Source: Eledone cirrhosa
Lineage: Eukaryota
Direction: 5' to 3'
Assembly (NCBI GenBank): GCA_964016885.1
Contig: OZ024762.1
Location: 23,374,001 to 23,438,000, forward strand
DNA length: 64,000 nucleotides
Part shown: positions 4,112 through 63,533 of the stretch, piece by piece
Layout: the number at the start of each line of letters is the position of its first letter
Numbering within the stretch: the stretch's first letter is position 1
Notes under the pieces: generated by a model
The model's database searches: none
What the model saw: the letters and a program-made list of their open reading frames with translations, nothing else
Told to the model about the DNA's origin: nothing
Position numbers and translations under genes: made by a program

Positions 4112-4288
4112 CTGTCTCCTGCTATCTCTATCGCTGTATCTGCATCTCTCTTTTTCTCTTTCTTTCGCTGTATATGTATTTCGCTCCGTTTTGTGCTCTC
4201 TTATCCAGAACCTCTCTCTTTCTACATTTTGAACGTGTAAATATATATATATATATAAGGGTTAAAATACTGGAGCGTGTTGGAGTTA

Positions 4289-4333
4289 ATTGCCCTGATG
4301 AGTCCTTAATAGGACGAAACATTGTTGGCTAAT
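4289..4333 (+). ncRNA. Type I hammerhead ribozyme motif
   Basis: attgcc-CTGATGA-gtcct/taat/aggac-GAAA-c att g-TT-ggctaat, overlapping AATAAA at 4331; identical copy on - at 57591-57635. Confidence 0.85.
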
Positions 4334-4377
4334 AAAGACTTTTGATGTATTGAAGGCTTCTTTGTTTTACTTTCTTA

Positions 4378-4449
<72 letters not shown>

Positions 4450-4459
4450 CTTCAACACT

Positions 4460-5016
4460 GGCTTAAGATATTTGTAAGTTGCAAAGCTTTTGTGCATGCA
4501 AGTCGGGCATTGTTCAGTGTCGGGCCCTTGGCAAATAGTATTTCGTAGCTCTATGAAATACAAAGGTCACAACACTTGTACTCTCCCATGTACGAGCGCT
4601 TTCTGGAGTAATTTCCATTTGAGCGTGAAAGGGGTGGAGTTCCTCTTGAGGTACCAGACATAGGATGCGAGTGTTGTCTGATTGGATTTGTCCGGTTTTC
4701 TGGATGAGTTTGTATGGGGATACCACCGTGCCTTAAAAGTGTTGGAAGACATTCCGATATAAGTATTTTTGTTGTTAACACCAATATCCGAGATGACATC
4801 ACATTTATATACGTCATTCGTCAGGCATTTGTTTTCGAGTGGGCAGGCTTCCTTATTTTGGCAGTTGCACAAATCTCCCGTCTGGGGATGGGTTTCTGAG
4901 GTAGTAGGCTTCTTTAATTTAGTAGTGTTGAGATTGGCTATATTCCTAGCTAGGTTAGGTGTAGTGGAGTAGGAGACCCTTATTGTATTCTTATTAAAGA
5001 TAGTGTAGTATCTATG
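4460..5016 (-). pseudogene. PLE C-terminal fragment (linker + GIY-YIG endonuclease), frameshifted
   Basis: Translates to RYYTIFNKNTIRVSYSTTPN...CNCQNKEACPLENKCL..VYKCDV...TYIGMSSNTFKAR...TLASYVWYLK...CDLCIS*...TCMHK; motifs typical of PLE GIY-YIG domains with CNC..CPL and C-terminal CxH (Naiad-like by recall). Confidence 0.85.
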
Positions 5017-5365: not shown

Positions 5366-9413
<4,048 letters not shown>

Positions 9414-9467: not shown

Positions 9468-9597
9468 GGAAAGTTATATTTAAAATGTTGGGTTACAACG
9501 AGTAAATATTTATAACTGATATAAAAGCACTCAACAAGTATTTGGAGTATATTTACGATATTAAATAAATGGAAATTATATTTATAAAACCATATTT

Positions 9598-9661
9598 ATT
9601 TCATTATATATATTTCAGGGATATCATATTAACAATATGTTATGCCTTCTTCAGACAAAAT
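9598..9661 (-). ncRNA. Type I hammerhead ribozyme motif (family A)
   Basis: Reverse complement of 9819-9882. Confidence 0.8.
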
Positions 9662-9818
9662 ACAATATAAACAGTCTTATAAATAAATAGATATGACATA
9701 CCTTTTCAAATATCAACTTGCATTTGTGAAGTTGATCTGCCAAATCAACTTCACAAATGCAAGTTGATATTTGAAAAGGTATGTCATATCTATTTATTTA
9801 TAAGACTGTTTATATTGT

Positions 9819-9882
9819 ATTTTGTCTGAAGAAGGCATAACATATTGTTAATATGATATCCCTGAAATATATATAATGAAAT
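9819..9882 (+). ncRNA. Type I hammerhead ribozyme motif (family A)
   Basis: attttgt-CTGAAGA-long stem II (agg..catatt/aatatg..cct)-GAAA-tatata-TA-atgaaat (7-bp stem I with two G-U), overlapping AATAAA. Confidence 0.8.
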
Positions 9883-9924
9883 AAATATGGTTTTATAAAT
9901 ATAATTTCCATTTATTTAATATCG

Positions 9925-9958
<34 letters not shown>

Positions 9959-12264: not shown

Positions 12265-12303
<39 letters not shown>

Positions 12304-12654
12304 AAAACAAATAACGAAACGAAATTAAATTTCGTTTCGTTTGTAACTCACTTTTGTATGACTGACGCTTAAACAATTAAGTTAAAAATGTACATCTACA
12401 TATGCATACTGAAATACTAGTGTGTATATGAATACACACACGTATACATATGTAGGTGTACCAAGTCTTTCACTGGTCGCTTTACAGTGAGCGGCCCAGC
12501 TATTCTGTATGTAAACACACAGACAAACCGGTTTTTAGAGTCATACTGGTTTTTGGTCAGTCATACAAAAGTGAGTTACAAACGAAACGAAATTTAATTT
12601 CGTCTCGTTATTTGTTTTTATCGTCTCCGCTGAACCGGTGCGTACTCACACTCT

Positions 12655-12662
12655 ATGCAAAT
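12655..12662 (+). promoter_or_regulatory. Octamer motif ATGCAAAT (candidate internal promoter element)
   Basis: Conserved as tatgcaaattag at the equivalent position in three insertions (also 56667, 63225), 88-100 nt upstream of the HHR core; function inferred. Confidence 0.45.
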
Positions 12663-12747
12663 TAGTCTGCCCACTACTAATTTTCATAGAAAAAGCATAT
12701 AACGATATGTGCTTTTACAATTCTCCAGAAAGGCCGGTAGATAGGTA

Positions 12748-12792
12748 AATATTGCTGATGAGTTGTAACAACAACGAAACTAGTTCAATATT
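12748..12792 (+). ncRNA. Type I hammerhead ribozyme motif, canonical core
   Basis: aatattg-CTGATGA-gttgt/aaca/acaac-GAAA-ctag-TT-caatatt; perfect 7-bp stem I and 5-bp stem II; stem I extends via ttctccagaaag/ctttctggagaa (12721-12814). Confidence 0.92.
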
Positions 12793-13310
12793 CCTTGTCT
12801 GGCTTTCTGGAGAATAGGGGGAAGGTGTTCCCCCAAAAACCAGTATGACTCTAAAAACCGGTTTGTCTGTGTGTTTACATACAGAATAGCTGGGCCGCTC
12901 ACTGTAAAGCGACCAGTGAAAGACTTGGTACACCTACATATGTATACGTGTGTGTATTCATATACACACTAGTATTTCAGTATGCATATGTAGATGTAGA
13001 TTTTTAACTTTTTAACTTATATATATTTATATATATGTATATTAAAATCTCGTCTAGGTTATATTTCCATGGTTTCCAAAACACTCCACTTGTTAGTCAA
13101 ATCTTGAAACTTATATTTAAAGAATGAAACTTATATTTAAGTATCAGCCGTACTAAGAGTAAGAAATGAAATTTCATTTTTTCCATATATATATATATTC
13201 ATACTTACCGATATCTTCTGTATATATATTCATATATATATACACAGAAGATAAATATATATATATATATATAAATATGTATTATATTCATATATATATA
13301 TATATATTAT

Positions 13311-17879: not shown

Positions 17880-17933
17880 TTATATATATATATTTATATT
17901 TATATATTTATATATATATATATATATTTATAT

Positions 17934-20900
17934 ATATTAGAAAGATCGAGTATCGAAAAATCGGCGCACGAGTTCACGAAAAACGAAATTCGATATGAGC
18001 GGCAGAGGGCTCAATAATTCAGATGAATCAGAGCTATAACTATCGTTAAAATACCGTCACATATAGAACAAGTCTACAATCAACCATACGATTTAAAATC
18101 GATAAAGGAAGATTCGGGCCAAACAGATAAAAAATATCAATAAAACAATACGTCAAAAATTTAAATGAATGTAAAATCATACCCGGACCCACTAGAAAGG
18201 TGTTAAATCTAGCTTCATGGGTTTCTGTAAATCCTTAGACAGTACTCTATCAGCTCACATATAAATATAAAAGCCTGCTAGAATAAGTGGAACGGAGTTT
18301 ACGTTGTCAACGAGTTTTATCCTGGCGGCAAAGGAGTCAACTAGCGGTGAAAAACGCACATGGCATTAGACAAGGGAGATGACCCCTATATCCGCGAAAA
18401 CAATTCGAGTGAATGTGGAAATACACATATCGAATTAGAGTGCTCAATAGACATGTTAAAATAAAACAAAAGCTATTCATCACTCAATAGAATCGACAAA
18501 AAATGAGCAATAAAATTAACTGGTGGATAGCTATGTCCAGAGCTAAATATATTAGAAAGATCGAGTATCGAAAAATCGGCGCACGAGTTCACGAAAAACG
18601 AAATTCGATATGAGCGGCAGAGGGCTCAATAATTCAGATGAATCAGAGCTATAACTATCGTTAAAATACCGTCACATATAGAACAAGTCTACAATCAACC
18701 ATACGATTTAAAATCGATAAAGGAAGATTCGGGCCAAACAGATAAAAAATATCAATAAAACAATACGTCAAAAATTTAAATGAATGTAAAATCATACCCG
18801 GACCCACTAGAAAGGTGTTAAATCTAGCTTCATGGGTTTCTGTAAATCCTTAGACAGTACTCTATCAGCTCACATATAAATATAAAAGCCTGCTAGAATA
18901 AGTGGAACGGAGTTTACGTTGTCAACGAGTTTTATCCTGGCGGCAAAGGAGTCAACTAGCGGTGAAAAACGCACATGGCATTAGACAAGGGAGATGACCC
19001 CTATATCCGCGAAAACAATTCGAGTGAATGTGGAAATACACATATCGAATTAGAGTGCTCAATAGACATGTTAAAATAAAACAAAAGCTATTCATCACTC
19101 AATAGAATCGACAAAAAATGAGCAATAAAATTAACTGGTGGATAGCTATGTCCAGAGCTAAATATATTAGAAAGATCGAGTATCGAAAAATCGGCGCACG
19201 AGTTCACGAAAAACGAAATTCGATATGAGCGGCAGAGGGCTCAATAATTCAGATGAATCAGAGCTATAACTATCGTTAAAATACCGTCACATATAGAACA
19301 AGTCTACAATCAACCATACGATTTAAAATCGATAAAGGAAGATTCGGGCCAAACAGATAAAAAATATCAATAAAACAATACGTCAAAAATTTAAATGAAT
19401 GTAAAATCATACCCGGACCCACTAGAAAGGTGTTAAATCTAGCTTCATGGGTTTCTGTAAATCCTTAGACAGTACTCTATCAGCTCACATATAAATATAA
19501 AAGCCTGCTAGAATAAGTGGAACGGAGTTTACGTTGTCAACGAGTTTTATCCTGGCGGCAAAGGAGTCAACTAGCGGTGAAAAACGCACATGGCATTAGA
19601 CAAGGGAGATGACCCCTATATCCGCGAAAACAATTCGAGTGAATGTGGAAATACACATATCGAATTAGAGTGCTCAATAGACATGTTAAAATAAAACAAA
19701 AGCTATTCATCACTCAATAGAATCGACAAAAAATGAGCAATAAAATTAACTGGTGGATAGCTATGTCCAGAGCTAAATATATTAGAAAGATCGAGTATCG
19801 AAAAATCGGCGCACGAGTTCACGAAAAACGAAATTCGATATGAGCGGCAGAGGGCTCAATAATTCAGATGAATCAGAGCTATAACTATCGTTAAAATACC
19901 GTCACATATAGAACAAGTCTACAATCAACCATACGATTTAAAATCGATAAAGGAAGATTCGGGCCAAACAGATAAAAAATATCAATAAAACAATACGTCA
20001 AAAATTTAAATGAATGTAAAATCATACCCGGACCCACTAGAAAGGTGTTAAATCTAGCTTCATGGGTTTCTGTAAATCCTTAGACAGTACTCTATCAGCT
20101 CACATATAAATATAAAAGCCTGCTAGAATAAGTGGAACGGAGTTTACGTTGTCAACGAGTTTTATCCTGGCGGCAAAGGAGTCAACTAGCGGTGAAAAAC
20201 GCACATGGCATTAGACAAGGGAGATGACCCCTATATCCGCGAAAACAATTCGAGTGAATGTGGAAATACACATATCGAATTAGAGTGCTCAATAGACATG
20301 TTAAAATAAAACAAAAGCTATTCATCACTCAATAGAATCGACAAAAAATGAGCAATAAAATTAACTGGTGGATAGCTATGTCCAGAGCTAAATATATTAG
20401 AAAGATCGAGTATCGAAAAATCGGCGCACGAGTTCACGAAAAACGAAATTCGATATGAGCGGCAGAGGGCTCAATAATTCAGATGAATCAGAGCTATAAC
20501 TATCGTTAAAATACCGTCACATATAGAACAAGTCTACAATCAACCATACGATTTAAAATCGATAAAGGAAGATTCGGGCCAAACAGATAAAAAATATCAA
20601 TAAAACAATACGTCAAAAATTTAAATGAATGTAAAATCATACCCGGACCCACTAGAAAGGTGTTAAATCTAGCTTCATGGGTTTCTGTAAATCCTTAGAC
20701 AGTACTCTATCAGCTCACATATAAATATAAAAGCCTGCTAGAATAAGTGGAACGGAGTTTACGTTGTCAACGAGTTTTATCCTGGCGGCAAAGGAGTCAA
20801 CTAGCGGTGAAAAACGCACATGGCATTAGACAAGGGAGATGACCCCTATATCCGCGAAAACAATTCGAGTGAATGTGGAAATACACATATCGAATTAGAG

Positions 20901-22885
20901 TGCTCAATAGACATGTTAAAATAAAACAAAAGCTATTCATCACTCAATAGAATCGACAAAAAATGAGCAATAAAATTAACTGGTGGATAGCTATGTCCAG
21001 AGCTAAATATATTAGAAAGATCGAGTATCGAAAAATCGGCGCACGAGTTCACGAAAAACGAAATTCGATATGAGCGGCAGAGGGCTCAATAATTCAGATG
21101 AATCAGAGCTATAACTATCGTTAAAATACCGTCACATATAGAACAAGTCTACAATCAACCATACGATTTAAAATCGATAAAGGAAGATTCGGGCCAAACA
21201 GATAAAAAATATCAATAAAACAATACGTCAAAAATTTAAATGAATGTAAAATCATACCCGGACCCACTAGAAAGGTGTTAAATCTAGCTTCATGGGTTTC
21301 TGTAAATCCTTAGACAGTACTCTATCAGCTCACATATAAATATAAAAGCCTGCTAGAATAAGTGGAACGGAGTTTACGTTGTCAACGAGTTTTATCCTGG
21401 CGGCAAAGGAGTCAACTAGCGGTGAAAAACGCACATGGCATTAGACAAGGGAGATGACCCCTATATCCGCGAAAACAATTCGAGTGAATGTGGAAATACA
21501 CATATCGAATTAGAGTGCTCAATAGACATGTTAAAATAAAACAAAAGCTATTCATCACTCAATAGAATCGACAAAAAATGAGCAATAAAATTAACTGGTG
21601 GATAGCTATGTCCAGAGCTAAATATATTAGAAAGATCGAGTATCGAAAAATCGGCGCACGAGTTCACGAAAAACGAAATTCGATATGAGCGGCAGAGGGC
21701 TCAATAATTCAGATGAATCAGAGCTATAACTATCGTTAAAATACCGTCACATATAGAACAAGTCTACAATCAACCATACGATTTAAAATCGATAAAGGAA
21801 GATTCGGGCCAAACAGATAAAAAATATCAATAAAACAATACGTCAAAAATTTAAATGAATGTAAAATCATACCCGGACCCACTAGAAAGGTGTTAAATCT
21901 AGCTTCATGGGTTTCTGTAAATCCTTAGACAGTACTCTATCAGCTCACATATAAATATAAAAGCCTGCTAGAATAAGTGGAACGGAGTTTACGTTGTCAA
22001 CGAGTTTTATCCTGGCGGCAAAGGAGTCAACTAGCGGTGAAAAACGCACATGGCATTAGACAAGGGAGATGACCCCTATATCCGCGAAAACAATTCGAGT
22101 GAATGTGGAAATACACATATCGAATTAGAGTGCTCAATAGACATGTTAAAATAAAACAAAAGCTATTCATCACTCAATAGAATCGACAAAAAATGAGCAA
22201 TAAAATTAACTGGTGGATAGCTATGTCCAGAGCTAAATATATTAGAAAGATCGAGTATCGAAAAATCGGCGCACGAGTTCACGAAAAACGAAATTCGATA
22301 TGAGCGGCAGAGGGCTCAATAATTCAGATGAATCAGAGCTATAACTATCGTTAAAATACCGTCACATATAGAACAAGTCTACAATCAACCATACGATTTA
22401 AAATCGATAAAGGAAGATTCGGGCCAAACAGATAAAAAATATCAATAAAACAATACGTCAAAAATTTAAATGAATGTAAAATCATACCCGGACCCACTAG
22501 AAAGGTGTTAAATCTAGCTTCATGGGTTTCTGTAAATCCTTAGACAGTACTCTATCAGCTCACATATAAATATAAAAGCCTGCTAGAATAAGTGGAACGG
22601 AGTTTACGTTGTCAACGAGTTTTATCCTGGCGGCAAAGGAGTCAACTAGCGGTGAAAAACGCACATGGCATTAGACAAGGGAGATGACCCCTATATCCGC
22701 GAAAACAATTCGAGTGAATGTGGAAATACACATATCGAATTAGAGTGCTCAATAGACATGTTAAAATAAAACAAAAGCTATTCATCACTCAATAGAATCG
22801 ACAAAAAATGAGCAATAAAATTAACTGGTGGATAGCTATGTCCAGAGCTAAATATATTAGAAAGATCGAGTATCGAAAAATCGGC
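17934..22885. repeat. Tandem array of 8 apparently identical 615-bp units plus ~30 bp of a ninth
   Basis: aaagatcgagtatcg recurs at 17941, 18556, 19171, 19786, 20401, 21016, 21631, 22246, 22861; no differences seen between units; (TA)n both sides; no ORF of 60 aa or more within the unit. Confidence 0.97.
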
Positions 22886-23120: not shown

Positions 23121-23319
23121 ATATTTATATTTATATATATATATTTATATATATATATTTCGTTTCTGAATTTGTTTAGCAAGATTCTTTATCTGAAATC
23201 GTGTGTTGAAACCGATATTGTTATACTTTGGGAGGGGCATACTTTGGGAGTGAAAGCAACTGGTGCGTGTGTTTCTTATTGGCAACATGACCCTCCCAAA
23301 GTATAACAATATATATATA

Positions 23320-23434
<115 letters not shown>

Positions 23435-23524
23435 ATTTATATATATATATAAATATATATATATATATTTATATATATTTATATATATATATATTTATAT
23501 ATATATATATATATTTATATATAT

Positions 23525-23909
23525 GCAAAGTTTTATTTAAATTGTTGGGTTACAACGAGTAAATATTTATAACTGATATAAAAGCACTCAACAAGTATTT
23601 GGAGTATATTTACGATATTAATTAAATGGAAACTATATTTATAAAACCATATTTATTTCATTATATATATTTCAGGGATATCATATTAAAAATATGTTAT
23701 GCCTTCTTCAGACAAAATACAATATAAACAGTCTTATAAATAGATAGATTTGACATACCTTTCATGTCAAATCTATCTATTTATAAGACTGTTTATATTG
23801 TATTTTGTCTGAAGAAGGCATAACATATTTTTAATATGATATCCCTGAAATATATATAATGAAATAAATATGGTTTTATAAATATAGTTTCCATTTATTT
23901 AATATCGTA
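23525..23909. mobile_element. Foldback family A insertion with opposed hammerheads (23655-23718 on -, 23802-23865 on +)
   Basis: Same outer termini as 9468-9926 but a different central junction (~23760); both HHRs have CTGAAGA/GAAA/TA intact. Confidence 0.9.
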
Positions 23910-24093
23910 TTTATATATATATATTTATATATATATATTTATATATATATATTTATATTTATATATTTATATATATATATTTATATATATATATTTATAT
24001 ATATATATTTATATATATATATTTATATATATATATTTATATATATATATTTATATATTTATATTTATATATATATATTTATATATATATATT

Positions 24094-24169
<76 letters not shown>

Positions 24170-24173
24170 TATA

Positions 24174-24221
<48 letters not shown>

Positions 24222-24635: not shown

Positions 24636-24715
24636 CTCCAACTAATTAGTTTCTGCAATGGGATAAAGACAGTTACGTAATGAACTGTTGAGAATTTCAT
24701 TGCGTCATCAGGGAG
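24636..24715 (-). ncRNA. Type I hammerhead with extended stem II
   Basis: ctcc-CTGATGA-c gcaatg...acagtt/aactgt...cattgc a-GAAA-ctaattag(palindrome)-TT-ggag. Confidence 0.85.
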
Positions 24716-25184: not shown

Positions 25185-25264
25185 CTCCAACTAATTAGTT
25201 TCTGCAATGGGATAAAGACAGTTACGTAATGAACTGTTGAGAATTTCATTGCGTCATCAGGGAG
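25185..25264 (-). ncRNA. Type I hammerhead with extended stem II (second copy)
   Basis: Identical to 24636-24715, 549 bp away. Confidence 0.85.
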
Positions 25265-31126: not shown

Positions 31127-31157
<31 letters not shown>

Positions 31158-31182
<25 letters not shown>

Positions 31183-31415
31183 AAAGAAGATGAAATCGAA
31201 AATGCAACTGGAGTCTTTTTAAGGATATTCATTTGTTTCCTTTACCGATTTTACAGTTCTTATGCTTTTCAAAAGTAGAATTGAGATGGAGGGTTTGTGG
31301 TTCCATCACAATTCTACTTTTGAAAAGCATAAGGACTGTAAAACCGGTAAAGGAAACAAATGAATATTCTTAAAAAGACTCCAGTTGCATTTTCGATTTC
31401 ATCTTCATTCCTTAT
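31158..31415. mobile_element. Symmetric foldback insertion (~125-bp arms) in (TA)n
   Basis: aaggaaagaagatgaaatcgaaaatgcaactggagtc...gatgga / tccatc...gactccagttgcattttcgatttcatcttcattcctt with few mismatches and an ~11-nt loop. Confidence 0.75.
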
Positions 31416-31450
31416 ATATATGTATATATATATATATATATATGTATATG

Positions 31451-31579
<129 letters not shown>

Positions 31580-39345: not shown

Positions 39346-41975
39346 ATAGGAGAAAGTATGACATCGAAGCTCAAGCAGTTTCGACGGCTATTTCTGGACT
39401 AAAGTAAGTTTTTTTTTAGTCTGGTAAATAAATAGCCGAACTTTTCAAGGGGTTCTTCCTTATATGGAAAGATTGTAGTTGTCAAGAGGATTGGTCAAAA
39501 TTTGTAGCAGACACAGAAAAGTCTATCATGGCAGTGGGTGCGGGGTGGGGGTGGCTGAACTTGCCTGTAGAACGATAGGAGATAGGGTAGAGCCGGTCAA
39601 GCGCAGAAGGTGAAATCTACACTGCAAATTCTAAGGAATGTGTATGAAAGTAGGCCAGAAGAGGTTGGCGAAAAAAGGTTTCTTTAGAAAGTGGAGAAGA
39701 CGTTATAGAAATAGTAAATCAAATGGGATTAGGGGACAATGAAAAAATATATAAAAAAGAATATAATAAAAAATGAGAGAAAGATATATCAGAATGTAAG
39801 ATTGGAAAGTGAGAAGTGAAATAAAACAAAGACTAAGGAGTCTAACACAGCTGCTATATTTAGTTGGTGCTGCTATTTCGGCCAATGCTATAGAATGAGT
39901 TTTTAGATGAGAATTATTGAAAATTTAGAATTGGGTATTAAAAATTAATATATCACATATCTGGGGTCTAACACGGCTGCTATGAATAGTTAGCATTCGC
40001 CGTTTACGCTATACTATCCGTAAGTTACTGGGGTGGGGTTACTGAGGCTAAAGAGGCCCGATGGGCTGCCTCGAGGTAGGCGAAAGGGGAAAAAACAAAG
40101 AAACGAACGAGGAAGAAGTTCGGTGGTGGAACGAAGTGATAGGAGAAGACAAAGGGAAGAAGAAAACATAGAGGAAAAGAAAAGAGGTACATCTACCTAT
40201 ATAAGTTGGGGTTTTCCCTATCTTATTCGGCAAGTGGGGTGTTTCAGCCCTTGCCTACCCACCCAGATTGTTAGGGGGTTTGAGGGCGAGGTAAATCTTC
40301 CACAATCTGTGTTTGCATGCAGTTACCAGTTCGTCTTTTTTTGTTTAGGAGTTGATCCTTCGTAAACATCATTTGTAATGTTTCCCTCGAGCATAAGTTA
40401 CACGGACGGCGTCCTCCCGTATAAGAGTTAGCTCTGGAAGAGTAAGCTCCAAGTAAGATGGTAAGTTATATTATTATCTTGAAGGTCTCAGATATGGCCC
40501 GAAAGTGTGGTGGAATGTCGCCGGACCGGGTTTCGGTACGTGTGTTGGTAGAGCCGGGTCTTAATGTCACAAGCGGTTAATCCTATATAAGCTTTGTTCG
40601 AGGTGTCCGTCCTCACGTTGCACTGGTAGATCACGTTACGTTCTCGGCATCTGTTGTTGAGGGGCACGTAGATCTATCAGGGCAGTTACACCTCCTGGTC
40701 GGCTCTCCACTAATTTGTAGGTTGTTTCTTCCATAGGGGTTGATTTTTGTTGTTGTTTGAGGAGACGATGTTTTGTGCGAAGGCAGGTGTGGTGCTGTAG
40801 GATAGCTTGATAATGTTTTTGTTGATTATGTTGTGGTAGCGGTTTTGTGGTGGAAAGTGTTTTTCGAGGAGCCTAAATAAGATATTCCCGATAGGTGTTG
40901 CCACCTCGGCATTGTGGGGAGGATTGAACCACGTTACGTGGCGTGAGCGGCGGTGTCGCCTGCTGGTTCCGCTAAGGGAAGATGGATAAAAGGATATTTC
41001 CTCCCGGAAGCCACTCCGGTTGAGGGCCTGGTTGTAATGAGGCATGTTCGTCGAATATCTGCCCATTAGCGAACAAACGAGATATGTGGAGGGAGATGTT
41101 TTTAACCAGATTATTGGTGATGTTTCTAGGATGGTTAGAGCGGCGGTGGATGTAGTGCAGGTTGTCGTTTGGTTTCCTGTATGGGTAGAACAGATAATTT
41201 TCGAGGTTGACTGCAACGTCCAGGAAATTTACTCGGGTTAGGGACGTTTGTAGGGTGTTTGTATTAGACCCCAGAGATGTGGTATTGATTTTTAATACTC
41301 AATTCTAAATTTTCAATAATTCTCATCTAGCAACTCATTCTATAGCATTGGCCGAAATAGCAGCACCAACTAAATATAGCAGCTGTGTTAGACTCCTTAG
41401 TTTTTTGTTTTATTTCACTTCTCACTTTCCAATCTTACATTCTGATACATCTTTCTCTCATTTTTTATTATATTCTTTTTTATATATGTTTTCATTGTCC
41501 CCTAATCCCATTTGATTTACTATTTCTATAACGTTCCACCTCCATTTTCTAAAGAAACCTTTTTTCTCCAACCTCCTCTGGCCTACTTTCATACACATTC
41601 CTTAGAATTTGCCGTGTAGATTTCACCTTCTACGCTTGACCGGCTCTAACCACTCCCTTATCGTTCTACAGGCAAGTTCAGCCACCCCCACCCCGTACCC
41701 ACTCCCATGATAGACTTTTCTGTGTCTGTTACAAATTTTGACCAATCCTCTTGACAACTACAATCTTCCCATATAAGGAAGTACTCCTTAAAATGTTCGG
41801 CTATTTATTTACCAGACAAAAAAAAAATTTACTTTAGTCCAGAAATAGCCGTCGAAACCGCTTGAGCTCTGCTGTCGGGATTATACTTTCTTTTATTACC
41901 CACTCTACTACCCTTAGTATTGAGTACTCTGGTGCGTTATGGTACATCTGGTTCCTCACCACAACTAATTCGTTA
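39346..41975 (-). mobile_element. 5'-truncated PLE with ~600-bp inverted pseudo-LTR arm
   Basis: ~39370-39971 is inverted relative to ~41265-41868; coding remnant between; right arm extends ~80-85 nt beyond the left arm terminus. Confidence 0.9.
40300..41260 (-). pseudogene. PLE RT C-terminus + GIY-YIG fragment
   Basis: YNQALNRSGF...WFNPPH...LLEKHFP...KLSYSTTP...CNCPDRSTCP...VIYQCNV...AYIGLT...CNLCSRE...LLNKKDELVTACKH, with stops and frameshifts. Confidence 0.88.
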
Positions 41976-55835: not shown

Positions 55836-56289
55836 GCAAGGTTTTTGATGATATGAAATCGTGTGTCGAAACAAATATATATATATAAAAATTAATTTAT
55901 ATATATATATAAATTTATATATATATATAAATTATATATATATATATATATATAAAAATTAATTTATATATATATATATATATAAAAATTAAATTGAAAC
56001 AAAATGAAAACGAAATTTCATTTCTCACTCTTAGTATGGCACTTACTTAAATGTAAGTATGCATGTATACGTACATACATATATGTATACAGACGTACAG
56101 TAGCATGCACATATATATATATACATATATATATACATATGTATACAGGTACACATACATATATGCACGTATCAGTTTAGCGGCGCTAACGTCGCTTTGT
56201 TCGTTTGTAAACAAACTGAACAGCCTGAATTTATGCCATACGGTGTTAAGGCAACCACGTCACCTTTTTGTTCAACACTGACACAGGAA

Positions 56290-56330
56290 CGATGTACTAG
56301 TTTCAAGCTTGTTAGCTATCATCAGCACCG
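56290..56330 (-). ncRNA. Type I hammerhead ribozyme motif
   Basis: Reverse complement of 56750-56790. Confidence 0.85.
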
Positions 56331-56472
56331 TTTACCCATCTGCCAGATAGTTGAACGTTCGAAAGTATATACTTTCCTTATGAAAATTAACGGCTGAGCA
56401 GCCTAATTAGCGCCGCTAAACTGATACGTGCATATATGTATGTGTACCTGTATACATATGTATATATATATG

Positions 56473-56507
<35 letters not shown>

Positions 56508-56749
56508 GTGCATGCTACTGTACGTCTGTATACATATATGTATGTACGTATACATGCATACTTACATTTAAGTAAGTGCCATACTAAGAGTGAGAAATGA
56601 AATTTCGTTTTCATTTTGTTTCAATTTATCGTTTTCGGTATGCCTGACCGATTTAACTCACTCAATATGCAAATTAGGCTGCTCAGCCGTTAATTTTCAT
56701 AAGGAAAGTATATACTTTCGAACGTTCAACTATCTGGCAGATGGGTAAA

Positions 56750-56790
56750 CGGTGCTGATGATAGCTAACAAGCTTGAAACTAGTACATCG
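56750..56790 (+). ncRNA. Type I hammerhead ribozyme motif
   Basis: cggtg-CTGATGA-t agct/aaca/agct t-GAAA-ctag-TA-catcg; stem I extends via ctggca/tgtcag and gttcaac/gttgaac. Confidence 0.87.
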
Positions 56791-57351
56791 TTCCTGTGTC
56801 AGTGTTGAACAAAAAGGTGACGTGGTTGCCTTAACACCGTATGGCATAAATTCAGGCTGTTCAGTTTGTTTACAAACGAACAAAGCGACGTTAGCGCCGC
56901 TAAACTGATACGTGCATATATGTATGTGTACCTGTATACATATGTATATATATATGTATATATATATATATATGTGCATGCTACTGTACGTCTGTATACA
57001 TATATGTATGTACGTATACATGCATACTTACATTTATATAAAAATTAATTTATATATATATATATATATATAAAAATTAATTTATATATATATATATATA
57101 TAAAAATTAATTTATATATATATATATATATAATATAATATTTATATATATATATAATATTATATTTATATATATATATATATATAATATTATATATATA
57201 TATAAATTATTATATATATATATATATATATATAAATTATTATATATATATATATATATATAAATTATTATATATATATATATATATAAATTATTATATA
57301 TATATATATATATATATATAAATTATTATATATATATATATATATATAAAT

Positions 57352-57442: not shown

Positions 57443-58312
57443 TAAGGATTAAAATACTGGAGCGTGTTGGAGTTAAACACCCTCTTCGTATTATAGAAAT
57501 GACAGTAAAAGGTATAGCTCAATGTAGTTAAACAGAGCCGAAGAATTATGAAAGTAAAACAAAGAAACCTTCAATACATCAAAAGTCTTTATTAGCCAAC
57601 AATGTTTCGTCCTATTAAGGACTCATCAGGGCAATTAAAACAACAAGAAGTATTATCGGCCTAAACAAGCCGAAAACTCCGAAGAATATGGAGTGTACAT
57701 ACACTAAAGTATTGCAAGATTATGGGTAAAAATATATAATAAAAATCACTAAGGAGGTATATAACATTTAGAACCATATTACAAATATAGTCCAAAACAA
57801 AACAAAAAAAAACAAAAAAACTAGAGCTAAACAAAAGTGGTTATATAGAGCGGGAATTATATATAATACTATATAATATAATATAATATACTTGTAACAA
57901 TATTAAAATTACAATAAAAATTAAAAGGTACAATATATATATGTATATATGTACGCACACGTACGCACACATACACATACATCAATACACATATCCATCT
58001 TTAACAGCACAAATTAAACCTTATTAAGAGTTTAAATATAAGTAAGCATGATAGGAATAAAAATAATAATAATAGTAATAATACCTATATCTAATATACA
58101 TGAGGTAATATTATATGATTATAAGTAGCTCATATAATATATAACAAACTATACAATTATATACCATATAATATAATATAATAATAGATAATCTCCGGTT
58201 AATTTACACAAACAATATAGATGTCACAATAGTACTATAATAACAATATAATAACATATATAATATATAATGGCATGCAAATTAACAAATCAATTCATAC
58301 AGAGTTACATAG
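57443..58312 (-). mobile_element. Probable PLE 3' UTR/pseudo-LTR fragment with hammerhead at 57591-57635
   Basis: HHR and terminal ~34 bp match the two pieces of the mini-insertion at 4257-4378; (TA)n flanks. Confidence 0.75.
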
Positions 58313-62666: not shown

Positions 62667-63533
62667 GGAAAAAATGAAATTTTAATTCTCACACTTAGTA
62701 CGGCTGATACTTAAATATAAGTATGTATACGTACATACATATATGTATACAGACGTACACTAGTATGTATATACATGCATACATGCACACATATATATAT
62801 GTACGTATGGGTTTACCGAACATATATTATAATGCTCGGTTTGTTTGTAAACAAACAGCCCAAATTATTAGCCGTACAGTGTTCGGGAACCATCGTTCAA
62901 CCTTTTGTGCAACACTGACAAAGAAACGATGAACTAGTTTCTAGCTTATTAGCTGTCATCAGCACCGTATACCTTCCTGTCAGTCGAGTGAACGTTTGAA
63001 AGTATATACTTTCCTTATAATAAATGTTCGGTAAACCCATACGTACATATATACATATGTGTGTGCATGTATGTATATACATACTACTGTACGTCTGTAT
63101 ACATATATATATATGTACGTATACATACTTATATTTAAGTATCAGCCGTACTAAGAGTGAAAAATGAAATTTCGTTTTTTCCATTTATCGTTTTCGGTAC
63201 ACCAGGCCGACTAAATCACTCGATATGCAAATTAGGCTGCTCAGCCGTTAATAGGCGTAAGGAAAGTATATACTTTCAAACGTTCAATCAACTGAGAGGA
63301 AGGTATACGGTGATGATGACAGCTAATAAGCTAGAAACTAGTTCATCGTTCCTTTGTCAAGTGTTCATCAAAAGGCCAACGATGGTTGCCGAACACTGTT
63401 TACAAACAAACCGAATATTATAATATATGTTCAATAAACACATACGTACATATATATATATATGTGTGCATGTGTAAATATACATACTACTGTACGTCTG
63501 TATACATATATGTATGTACGTATACATACTTAT
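62662..63533. mobile_element. Retrozyme-like element (octamer + HHR family): - arm 62662-63020, + arm longer than one monomer
   Basis: Homologous to 55990-57036; catacgtacatat recurs 403 bp apart; octamer 63225-63232; HHR on - intact, HHR on + (63308-63348) has ATGATGA. Confidence 0.85.
62927..62967 (-). ncRNA. Type I hammerhead ribozyme motif
   Basis: cggtg-CTGATGA-c agct/aata/agct a-GAAA-ctag-TT-catcg. Confidence 0.85.

What the first reader, a model, noticed from the sequence alone, without database searches (positions are those of the whole stretch)
12721..12814. Covariation of an extended rod around the hammerhead between subfamilies
Seen: at 12.7 kb the pairings are stem I aatattg/caatatt, stem II gttgt/acaac and distal ttctccagaaag/ctttctggagaa. 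At 56.7 kb they are aacggtg/catcgtt, agct/agct, ctggca/tgtcag and gttcaac/gttgaac. Sequences differ while pairing, the 4-nt AA(C/T)A loop II, the GGTA-containing bulge upstream of stem I and the CTAG stem III are kept. Inference: selection on RNA structure, possibly a loop II-stem I bulge tertiary contact as in fast natural HHRs.
Basis: partly seen in the sequence, partly recalled or inferred. Interest (0 to 1): 0.7.

Follow-up and report, generated by a model that had tools for sequence, protein, structure and literature searches.

The report
Conserved RNA rod clamps jumping ribozyme
Tens of thousands of short, protein-free repeats in this animal genome carry a predicted self-cutting (hammerhead) RNA whose long flanking stem keeps its base pairing while its letters change, and this stem likely holds the two ends of the cut RNA together so that it can close into a circle and be copied elsewhere, probably by a Penelope-type jumping gene.

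Summary
The pairings are real and extend beyond two copies. The 12.7-kb motif is a canonical type I hammerhead in a 467-bp tandem unit of an animal non-LTR retrozyme; 56.7 kb is a sister family (484 bp). One tight core pattern gives 23,323 genomic hits against 0 in the control. Across seven diverged lineages the stem I arms pair with their own partner better than with any swapped one (1 of 5040 permutations). Inherited changes in the distal rod favour G·U over A·C (42:15; private changes 92:76), which points to selection on the RNA strand; that contrast weakens with an independent tree. Loop II is better read as a six-base loop ending in A. U1.7 is kept (155 of 162) while its 2D partner varies, as in the Schistosoma loop-bulge contact, so this part is known architecture. 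Less ordinary: the predicted start of an internal snRNA-type promoter falls inside the rod's 5' arm, so the full rod would form only in read-through, cut or circular RNA. Cleavage, transcription and circles are untested (no RNA runs). This scan already reported the promoter and these retrozymes elsewhere in this genome. New member of a known kind.

The parts
12556..13010 (+). Family A retrozyme unit, forward arm of the insertion (455 of 467 bp), ending at one of the two fixed 3' ends and followed by (AT)n
12302..12556 (-). Inverted, 5'-truncated arm of the same insertion, ending at the other fixed 3' end (unit position 65), followed by (AT)n
12655..12665 (+). Octamer plus NAG, as found at -76/-77 of two host U6 genes
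12670..12701 (+). PSE-like word and TATA-like box by alignment to family B; the U1/U2 matrix match is weak in family A (rank 40 of 400)
12727..12727 (+). Predicted transcription start (octamer +72, U1/U2 geometry), inside the 5' arm of the outer helix; inferred only
12721..12743 (+). 5' arm of the distal rod (outer 12-bp helix 12721-12732 and middle helix)
12744..12754 (+). GG closing pairs, UA bulge and 5' strand of stem I
12755..12785 (+). Hammerhead core, stem II with six-base loop (12766-12771), GAAA, 2-bp palindromic stem III; predicted cut after 12785 (GUU)
12786..12814 (+). 3' strand of stem I (U1.7 = 12792) and 3' arm of the distal rod
12817..12834 (+). Hairpin just beyond the rod, with two G-C to A-U double changes between family A subfamilies
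56407..57036 (+). Family B retrozyme, forward arm (about 1.3 units of 484 bp); octamer 56667, TATA-like 56709, predicted start 56739, core 56755, predicted cut after 56785 (GUA)
56724..56810 (+). Family B rod: outer helix, middle helix, stem I and hammerhead
55990..56411 (-). Inverted arm of the family B insertion with a second, identical hammerhead (core starts at 56325)
62900..63000 (-). Subfamily C hammerhead (core starts at 62962), decayed rod
63278..63370 (+). Subfamily C hammerhead on the opposite arm; first core base changed (C3 to A at 63313), predicted inactive
   Evidence: read directly

Best explanation
The rod is the extended stem I of a canonical type I hammerhead in a protein-free tandem retroelement (an animal non-LTR retrozyme), and its pairing is likely kept by selection on the RNA: the inner part likely docks loop II onto the stem I bulge, and the outer part likely clamps the two ends of the cut unit-length RNA. 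Shown: the helices, the tandem 467/484-bp units, the conservation pattern, and the insertion anatomy (inverted arms, two fixed 3' ends, scattered 5' ends, (AT)n targets). Inferred steps: (1) an internal snRNA-type promoter (octamer, PSE-like word, TATA-like box) starts transcription 16-28 nt before the core, inside the rod's 5' arm, probably with Pol II because units hold runs of 5-7 T; (2) read-through into the next unit and cutting at successive hammerheads, possibly as dimers through the palindromic stem III, releases a monomer that carries its promoter; (3) in that monomer the rod pairs the first ~30 nt with the last ~60 nt and favours ligation to a circle; (4) a Penelope-type RT/endonuclease copies circles or uncut multimers from two internal start points about 74 nt apart into (AT)n DNA.
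For: Rfam HH9 match 38.6 bits, E 1e-8. Tandem and inverted arrays. 23,323 core hits vs 0 control. Seven lineages share the architecture. In-register pairs 63 of 63 cognate vs mean 4.9 of 9 swapped; distal-arm duplex -25.1 vs -12.1 kcal/mol; both best of 5040 permutations. Sequence-only alignment of 17 copies: 85.7% of cells paired vs 67.5% shuffled and at most 41.6% slid; 18 of 29 pairs changed on both sides; RNAalifold recovers the outer helix unaided. Distal rod, Watson-Crick to G·U vs to A·C: internal branches 42:15 (p 0.0005), terminal 92:76 (p 0.25); with a tree built outside the rod 42:14 internal, in the same direction in all six groups and on both arms. Pairs upstream of the predicted start: 26:5 internal vs 58:59 terminal. 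Octamer 72-100 nt before a core with a different stem III: 4,431 vs 7 control. Host U6 has an octamer-like word at -76 to -78 and TATA near -30; U1/U2 have TCAGT at -56 to -58. The U1/U2 matrix ranks octamer +16 first of 400 offsets in 4 of 6 groups. Family A 3' ends: 18 of 41 at unit 65-67 and 20 of 41 at 455-465, one of each on opposite arms in 9 loci; 58 5' ends spread over 52 positions, matching the two RT start sites and tail of Penelope elements (PMC11167929, PMC8557442 passages). The folded monomers are closed by the rod.
Against: The Rfam score is below the gathering cut-off of 52. In the tree-aware test only 5 of 15 proposed pairs pass, only 1 at the all-pairs level, and one non-proposed neighbour pair scores as high. 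With the independent tree the internal-vs-terminal G·U/A·C contrast drops to p 0.057 (0.077 upstream of the start), and terminal branches also show an excess (113:75). Stem I proper shows no G·U excess. True double changes inside families are few (about 3 on internal distal branches). The family B distal duplex is only marginal against shuffles (34 of 500). Forbidding the distal arms lowers stem I probability in A (0.93 to 0.65) but not in B (0.92). The promoter matrix fails for family A itself (rank 40) and for lineage I (rank 393), and absolute scores are low. Cut sites and the stem Ib register of lineages E and I were chosen using pairing, so 63 of 63 is partly built in. No tandem units were seen for lineages H and I, and few for D and E. 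Only 1 of 9 predicted Xenopus retrozymes cleaved in vitro (bioRxiv 2026.07.22.740005).
Confidence: 0.72

Rival explanations
1. The distal rod is selected only as a folding aid for the ribozyme: it nucleates stem I in the second and later hammerheads of a read-through transcript, and has no role in joining ends or circularisation.
For: [quoted passage not shown] From the predicted start, stem I probability in family B is only 0.52, against 0.92 in the monomer. Removing the distal arms does not open stem I in the B monomer.
Against: The two roles are not exclusive. In folded monomers of both families the rod joins the two ends. Insertions run across several cut sites and never end at the cut site, which fits circular or uncut templates.
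Confidence: 0.15
2. The distal complementarity is made and repaired at the DNA level, by template switching or quasi-palindrome correction in a palindrome-rich repeat, without selection on RNA.
For: The units are full of hairpins (66-69% paired). The outer helix differs wholesale between A and B/C/G, a single contrast. Stepwise double changes within families are rare.
Against: A DNA mechanism is strand-symmetric and gives Watson-Crick pairs. Inherited changes favour G·U over A·C about 3:1, lineage majorities show 21 G·U vs 6 A·C (p 0.006), and the ribozyme strand folds better in 6 of 7 lineages.
Confidence: 0.07
3. These are pseudo-LTR fragments of autonomous Penelope elements, copied passively, or transcribed only by read-through from host promoters; the octamer region is not a working promoter.
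For: Retrozymes are related to Penelope pLTRs (bioRxiv 2026.07.22.740005). The PSE-like match is weak in family A. Penelope-type ORFs lie in the window.
Against: Arrays consist of many head-to-tail units with no ORF between them. The octamer keeps a narrow spacing to the core across lineages that differ elsewhere.
Confidence: 0.06

Closest known systems
Animal non-LTR retrozymes (coral, mussel, axolotl; Cervera and de la Pena 2020, PMC7229834, passages and sections 14 and 17 read; Li, Clavereau and Pollet 2026, bioRxiv 10.64898/2026.07.22.740005, parts 1-3 of 5 read)
   Same: Protein-free tandem units with one type I hammerhead each, low GC, highly self-paired predicted monomer, thousands of copies, co-occurrence with Penelope elements. 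Axolotl HHR_Amex2 has the same U·U at the base of helix II as family B.
   Different: Units of 467-484 bp are longer than the 170-400 nt of the 2020 paper but inside the 51-972 bp of the 2026 preprint. The parts read describe neither an internal promoter, inverted arms with two fixed 3' ends, nor selection on the distal rod. Expression and circles are shown there, not here.
Schistosoma mansoni full-length type I hammerhead and Rfam Hammerhead_HH9 (RF02275); PMC2632901 and PMC11875169, passages
   Same: Six-base loop II ending in A, internal loop or bulge in stem I about 7 bp from the core, U at 1.7; internal-loop strands UCCU:GUAA/GUAU here against UCCA:GUAC there.
   Different: Score below the HH9 cut-off; 2-bp palindromic stem III; GUU or GUA triplet; position 10.1-11.1 often unpaired (U·U, C·A, A·A); rod continues for 20 or more further pairs.
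Newt satellite 2 (extended hammerhead, snRNA-type promoter); known here from passages in PMC6155905 and PMC2220036; the primary promoter paper PMC308520 was not held
   Same: Tandem hammerhead repeat with an internally looped helix I extension that must match loop II, and an internal snRNA-type Pol II promoter.
   Different: Invertebrate-type genome; octamer sits directly before the PSE-like word, as in this host's U6 genes. Whether the newt start site lies inside its rod could not be read.
Cave cricket pDo500 satellite hammerhead (PMC2837043, abstract only)
   Same: About 500-bp tandem unit; stems more conserved than loops, with compensatory changes.
   Different: That study covers the hammerhead region across species; here several diverged lineages coexist in one genome and the test reaches the distal rod.
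Penelope-like elements, EN+ clades (PMC8557442, PMC11167929, PMC4209133; passages)
   Same: Partial tandems, inverted 5'-truncated arm, optional tail between two RT start sites, AT-rich targets.
   Different: No ORF; tail about 74 nt rather than 30-40; canonical rather than minimal hammerhead; the partner element was not identified.

Membership tests
Type I hammerhead ribozyme | CUGANGA / GAAA / NUH core with three helices, helix I open | tested here: met
Type I hammerhead ribozyme | Self-cleavage at NUH | not testable with these tools
   no bench or RNA data
Canonical metazoan (Schistosoma-like) type I hammerhead | Conserved U1.7 and final A of loop II, bulge or internal loop in stem I | tested here: met
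   U1.7 in 155 of 162 rows; final loop A in all 7 lineage majorities by eye (the L6 column is mis-anchored for lineages H and I)
Canonical metazoan (Schistosoma-like) type I hammerhead | Physical loop II to stem I contact that speeds cleavage at low Mg2+ | not testable with these tools
   needs kinetics or probing
Rfam Hammerhead_HH9 (RF02275) | Score at or above gathering threshold 52 bits | tested here: not met
   38.6 bits; best genome-wide scored candidate 35.8 bits of 58 scored
Animal non-LTR retrozyme | Head-to-tail short repeats with an intact type I hammerhead in consecutive units | tested here: met
   families A and B: 47 of 80 and 25 of 85 locus-strands with 2 or more cores (loci overlap); not seen for H and I
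Animal non-LTR retrozyme | No protein-coding capacity, no LTRs | tested here: met
   no ORF of 120 aa or more in 12302-13022 or 55990-57036; unit structure
Animal non-LTR retrozyme | Expressed as linear and circular unit-length RNA | not testable with these tools
   no RNA holder listed
Penelope-mobilised non-autonomous element | Inverted truncated arm, two fixed 3' ends (tail), microsatellite target | tested here: met
   family A
Penelope-mobilised non-autonomous element | 3' end shared with an identified autonomous partner | not tested
   no partner search was run
snRNA-type internal promoter | Host PSE-like word and TATA-like box at host spacing, with octamer | tested here: inconclusive
   first of 400 offsets in 4 of 6 groups, rank 40 in family A, rank 393 in lineage I; octamer as in U6

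The most novel reading that the evidence does not exclude
The retrozyme's own promoter doubles as half of its ribozyme's closing stem. Transcription starts inside the 5' arm of the rod, so the first hammerhead of a transcript has a short stem I while every later one, and the released monomer, has the full rod. The rod is then a processing-dependent end clamp, and the G·U bias upstream of the start is a genomic record that unit-length or circular RNA, not the primary transcript, is what gets copied.
Probability: 0.4. Interest if true: 0.62.

Novelty: new member of a known kind. Interest (0 to 1): 0.4.

Why it matters
How animal retrozymes are transcribed, closed into circles and copied is still largely inferred. 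These families give exact, testable positions for each step: a predicted start, a cut site, a clamp and two reverse-transcription start points. They also give seven natural sequence solutions of one ribozyme fold, including non-canonical base-of-stem-II pairs, for arm-swap and loop-swap kinetics. The G·U versus A·C test on inherited versus private changes is a simple way to show RNA-level selection in any repeat family.

Tried and rejected
Rfam at gathering threshold found nothing in the window; the E-value scan was swamped by microsatellite miRNA hits. A DNA search of the genome with family B returned nothing although the family is abundant, probably because very common words are skipped. The RF02275 genome search scored only 58 candidates and gave one weak hit. 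Relaxed pattern had a high chance background (368 vs 224). No RNA holder listed among sequencing runs; this is no evidence either way, and the runs laid were contigs only, so no start, cut or circle could be read. End mapping for family B was swamped by AT-repeat matches and was not used. A 23-copy alignment that included lineages D, H and I misaligned the 3' strand and was dropped; the 17-copy alignment leaves those lineages out, and lineage E is out of register in its distal columns. The stem II probability of 0.0 printed for family B is an indexing error of my script; the printed structures show the stem. A Pol III (U6-type) reading was considered: the octamer matches U6, but octamer-to-TATA spacing is about 4 nt shorter and units hold T5-T7 runs. 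A genome-wide count of U1.7 was not obtained. The primary newt promoter paper was not held. Look-ups of earlier findings by sequence gave nothing. Searches listed no paper on a rod overlapping a retrozyme start site or on cephalopod retrozymes; only listings were seen, subscription papers are mostly missing, and the closed supplements of the 2026 preprint may list related families.

Full report
Observation. The 12.7-kb and 56.7-kb regions fold at z = -4.2 and -3.8 against 200 shuffles; the identical inverted copy at 56.3 kb gives the same result, and the decayed 62.9-kb copy does not beat shuffles. Rfam finds nothing at gathering threshold but aligns 12737-12808 to Hammerhead_HH9 at 38.6 bits, E 1.1e-8, with a 4-bp stem II and a six-base loop. 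The core, the NUH triplet (GUU at 12783-12785, GUA at 56783-56785) and a 2-bp palindromic stem III make these canonical metazoan type I hammerheads in the sense of PMC4209133 (passages).

What the element is. The window lies in a 3.0-Gb animal genome rich in (AT)n; the organism was not established. The 12.7-kb motif sits in a 467-bp unit that forms head-to-tail arrays and inverted arms, with 45 matches listed, most near-identical over the full 221 bases, from 40 scored of 934 candidates. Family B has units of mostly 428-502 bp, 484 in the window. The two families are alignable from the hairpin near the insertion end through the promoter-like region and the ribozyme. A tight core pattern gives 23,323 hits against 0 for the reversed control. 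Neither insertion holds an ORF of 120 aa or more. This is the definition of an animal non-LTR retrozyme (PMC7229834, passages and sections 14, 17; bioRxiv 2026.07.22.740005, parts 1-3 of 5). In family A, 38 of 41 mapped 3' ends fall at two points (unit 65-67 and 455-465), nearly all followed by (AT)n, with one of each on opposite arms in 9 loci; 58 5' ends scatter over 52 positions with no pile-up at the cut site or the predicted start. Penelope elements show the same inverted arm and optional tail, which marks two internal RT start sites (PMC8557442, PMC11167929 passages). The partner was not searched for.

Sampling for covariation. Pattern searches and targeted fetches gave 245 distinct octamer-plus-core sequences. 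Of these, 235 fall into seven lineages (A 52, B/C 79, G 9, D 32, E 30, H 22, I 11); two of an eighth group and eight singletons were left out. The sample comes mostly from the first contig, includes tandem neighbours, and for D, E, H and I was found largely with octamer-containing patterns.

Inner rod and tertiary contact. All seven lineage majorities show a 7-position stem I, a 2-3 nt bulge on the 5' strand and a further helix. Pairs 1-5 vary through several canonical types. U1.7 is kept in 155 of 162 distinct rows while the base opposite is U (73), A (63), G (23) or C (3); 19 of 235 copies were dropped for lacking U-H at the expected place. Loop II starts with a pyrimidine and ends in A in the lineage majorities (by eye). 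In the Schistosoma structure the 3' A of the CAAAUA loop makes a reverse Hoogsteen pair with the 5' U of internal loop UCCA:GUAC (PMC2632901 passages; PMC11875169 passages); families A and B/C read UCCU:GUAA or GUAU. In-register pairing is 63 of 63 for cognate strands against 4.9 of 9 for swapped ones, best of 5040 permutations, though cut sites and two registers were set using pairing. My tree-aware G-test with a substitution-shuffling null (an imitation of R-scape, not R-scape) passes 5 of 15 proposed pairs at E<0.05, only one at the all-pairs level, and one non-proposed neighbour pair scores equally high. Power is limited by seven lineages.

Distal rod. Cognate distal arms form duplexes of -25.1 kcal/mol on average against -12.1 swapped, best of 5040; five lineages beat all 500 shuffles, H is matched by 3 and B by 34. 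In a sequence-only alignment of 17 real copies (A, B/C, G, E), 85.7% of cells pair against 67.5% shuffled and at most 41.6% slid, and 18 of 29 pairs change on both sides; RNAalifold finds the outer helix in the same columns for A and B/C/G. That outer-helix difference is one lineage contrast and could be a wholesale replacement. To separate RNA selection from DNA palindrome repair I counted, at majority Watson-Crick pairs, changes to G·U and to A·C, which mutation alone should give equally. Distal rod: internal (inherited) branches 42:15, terminal (private) 92:76, Fisher p 0.013. With trees built from sequence outside the rod: 42:14 internal (p 0.0002), 113:75 terminal (p 0.007), contrast p 0.057; pair kept versus lost p 0.004; the internal excess holds in all six groups and on both arms. 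Lineage majorities carry 21 G·U against 6 A·C. Stem I proper shows no such excess, and true double changes within families are few. Branch events are not fully independent, so the p-values are optimistic. Overall the distal rod is under RNA-strand selection, expressed mainly as wobble tolerance within families and as replaced helices between them.

Promoter and geometry. An octamer lies 72-100 nt before the core in 4,431 further places whose stem III differs from A and B, against 7 in the control. Two host U6 genes have the same octamer plus NAG at -76/-77 with TATA near -30, and the tandem U6 cluster has a one-base variant at -77/-78; U1 and U2 genes have TCAGT at -56 to -58 and a TATA-like run, with no octamer within 300 nt. 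A matrix from eight U1/U2 upstream regions ranks octamer +16 first of 400 offsets in B/C/G, D, E and H, but 40th in A and 393rd in I, with low absolute scores. U1/U2 geometry puts the start at octamer +72: window 12727 and 56739. Both lie inside the 5' arm of the rod: 6 of the 12 outer pairs in A, and all 7 outer plus 5 middle pairs in B, would use bases upstream of the start. Those upstream pairs also show the G·U excess (26:5 internal vs 58:59 terminal; 26:9 vs 69:53). Runs of 5-7 T in the units argue for Pol II. Newt satellite 2 is reported to use an snRNA-type Pol II promoter (PMC2220036 passage; primary paper not held) and to need a looped helix I extension (PMC6155905 passage). That vertebrate snRNA promoters use octamer and PSE elements, and that T runs stop Pol III, is recalled knowledge.

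Mechanism. In folded cut-to-cut monomers the rod pairs the 5' end with the 3' end in both families. I therefore read the inner rod as the docking platform for loop II and the outer rod as an end clamp that exists only after read-through or processing. The clamp role is the weakest step: forbidding the distal arms lowers stem I probability from 0.93 to 0.65 in A but leaves it at 0.92 in B, while a B transcript from the predicted start forms stem I at only 0.52, which fits a folding-aid role equally well. Retrozyme monomers are circularised mainly by RtcB in vitro (PMC7229834 passages). No RNA run was available.

Novelty. The ribozyme fold, its tertiary motif, compensatory changes in a hammerhead satellite (PMC2837043 abstract) and the retrozyme class are all described. 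I had noted the octamer lead and the U6/U2 comparison before the look-up; earlier notes of this scan report the promoter and such retrozymes in this genome and others, which is not independent support. Verdict: real, new member of a known kind, interest 0.4.

Noticed in passing
G000 U6 genes L192, L193, L194, L207 (about -78 to -30): Host U6 promoters carry an octamer or a one-base variant directly at -76 to -78, where a PSE is expected, with TATA near -30; U1/U2 lack the octamer but have a TATA-like run at -30 to -35.
   Followed up: partly
Lineage D, e.g. L123, L125, L126, 150 nt upstream of the octamer: Three to four tandem octamer-like copies about 33 nt apart precede the promoter-like region.
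   Followed up: no
Lineage I, e.g. L253, L282, L285: Octamer-to-TATA spacing is U6-like (about +46) and a T-rich run follows the ribozyme; may be a Pol III variant.
   Followed up: no
window 12695-12720 and 56703-56718; lineages B, D, E, G: The TATA-like box sits in a palindromic hairpin; family A's is about 12 nt longer, which shifts the promoter relative to the rod.
   Followed up: partly
window 12817-12834: Hairpin beyond the rod with two G-C to A-U double changes between A subfamilies, also seen in contigs of runs X1, X2 and X5.
   Followed up: partly
window 6548-8527 (+), 4567-5016 (-), 40710-41228 (-): Penelope-type coding remnants: RVT_1 (E 8e-11) and a weak GIY-YIG match; not linked to the retrozymes.
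   Followed up: partly
window 4286-4379 (+) and 57545-57638 (-); 43251; 24695-24711 and 25244-25260 (-): Other hammerhead-core motifs without the octamer, probably minimal Penelope ribozymes of other families.
   Followed up: no
L037, L042, L065, L073, L074, L077, L100, L168: A further hammerhead repeat family with a long stem I rod, an unpaired base of stem II and no octamer upstream.
   Followed up: no
window 17929-22885: Near-perfect tandem array with a 615-bp period (about 8 copies).
   Followed up: no
window 9548-9932, 23309-24202, 31129-31463: Long inverted repeats of other families; two carry a core-like motif with a long insert between the two core halves.
   Followed up: no
G000:C1:5738327-5752443 and C1:376448680-376455818: Long family A arrays (about 31 units, and 12 plus at least 4 inverted units), each ending in a head-to-head inversion.
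   Followed up: no
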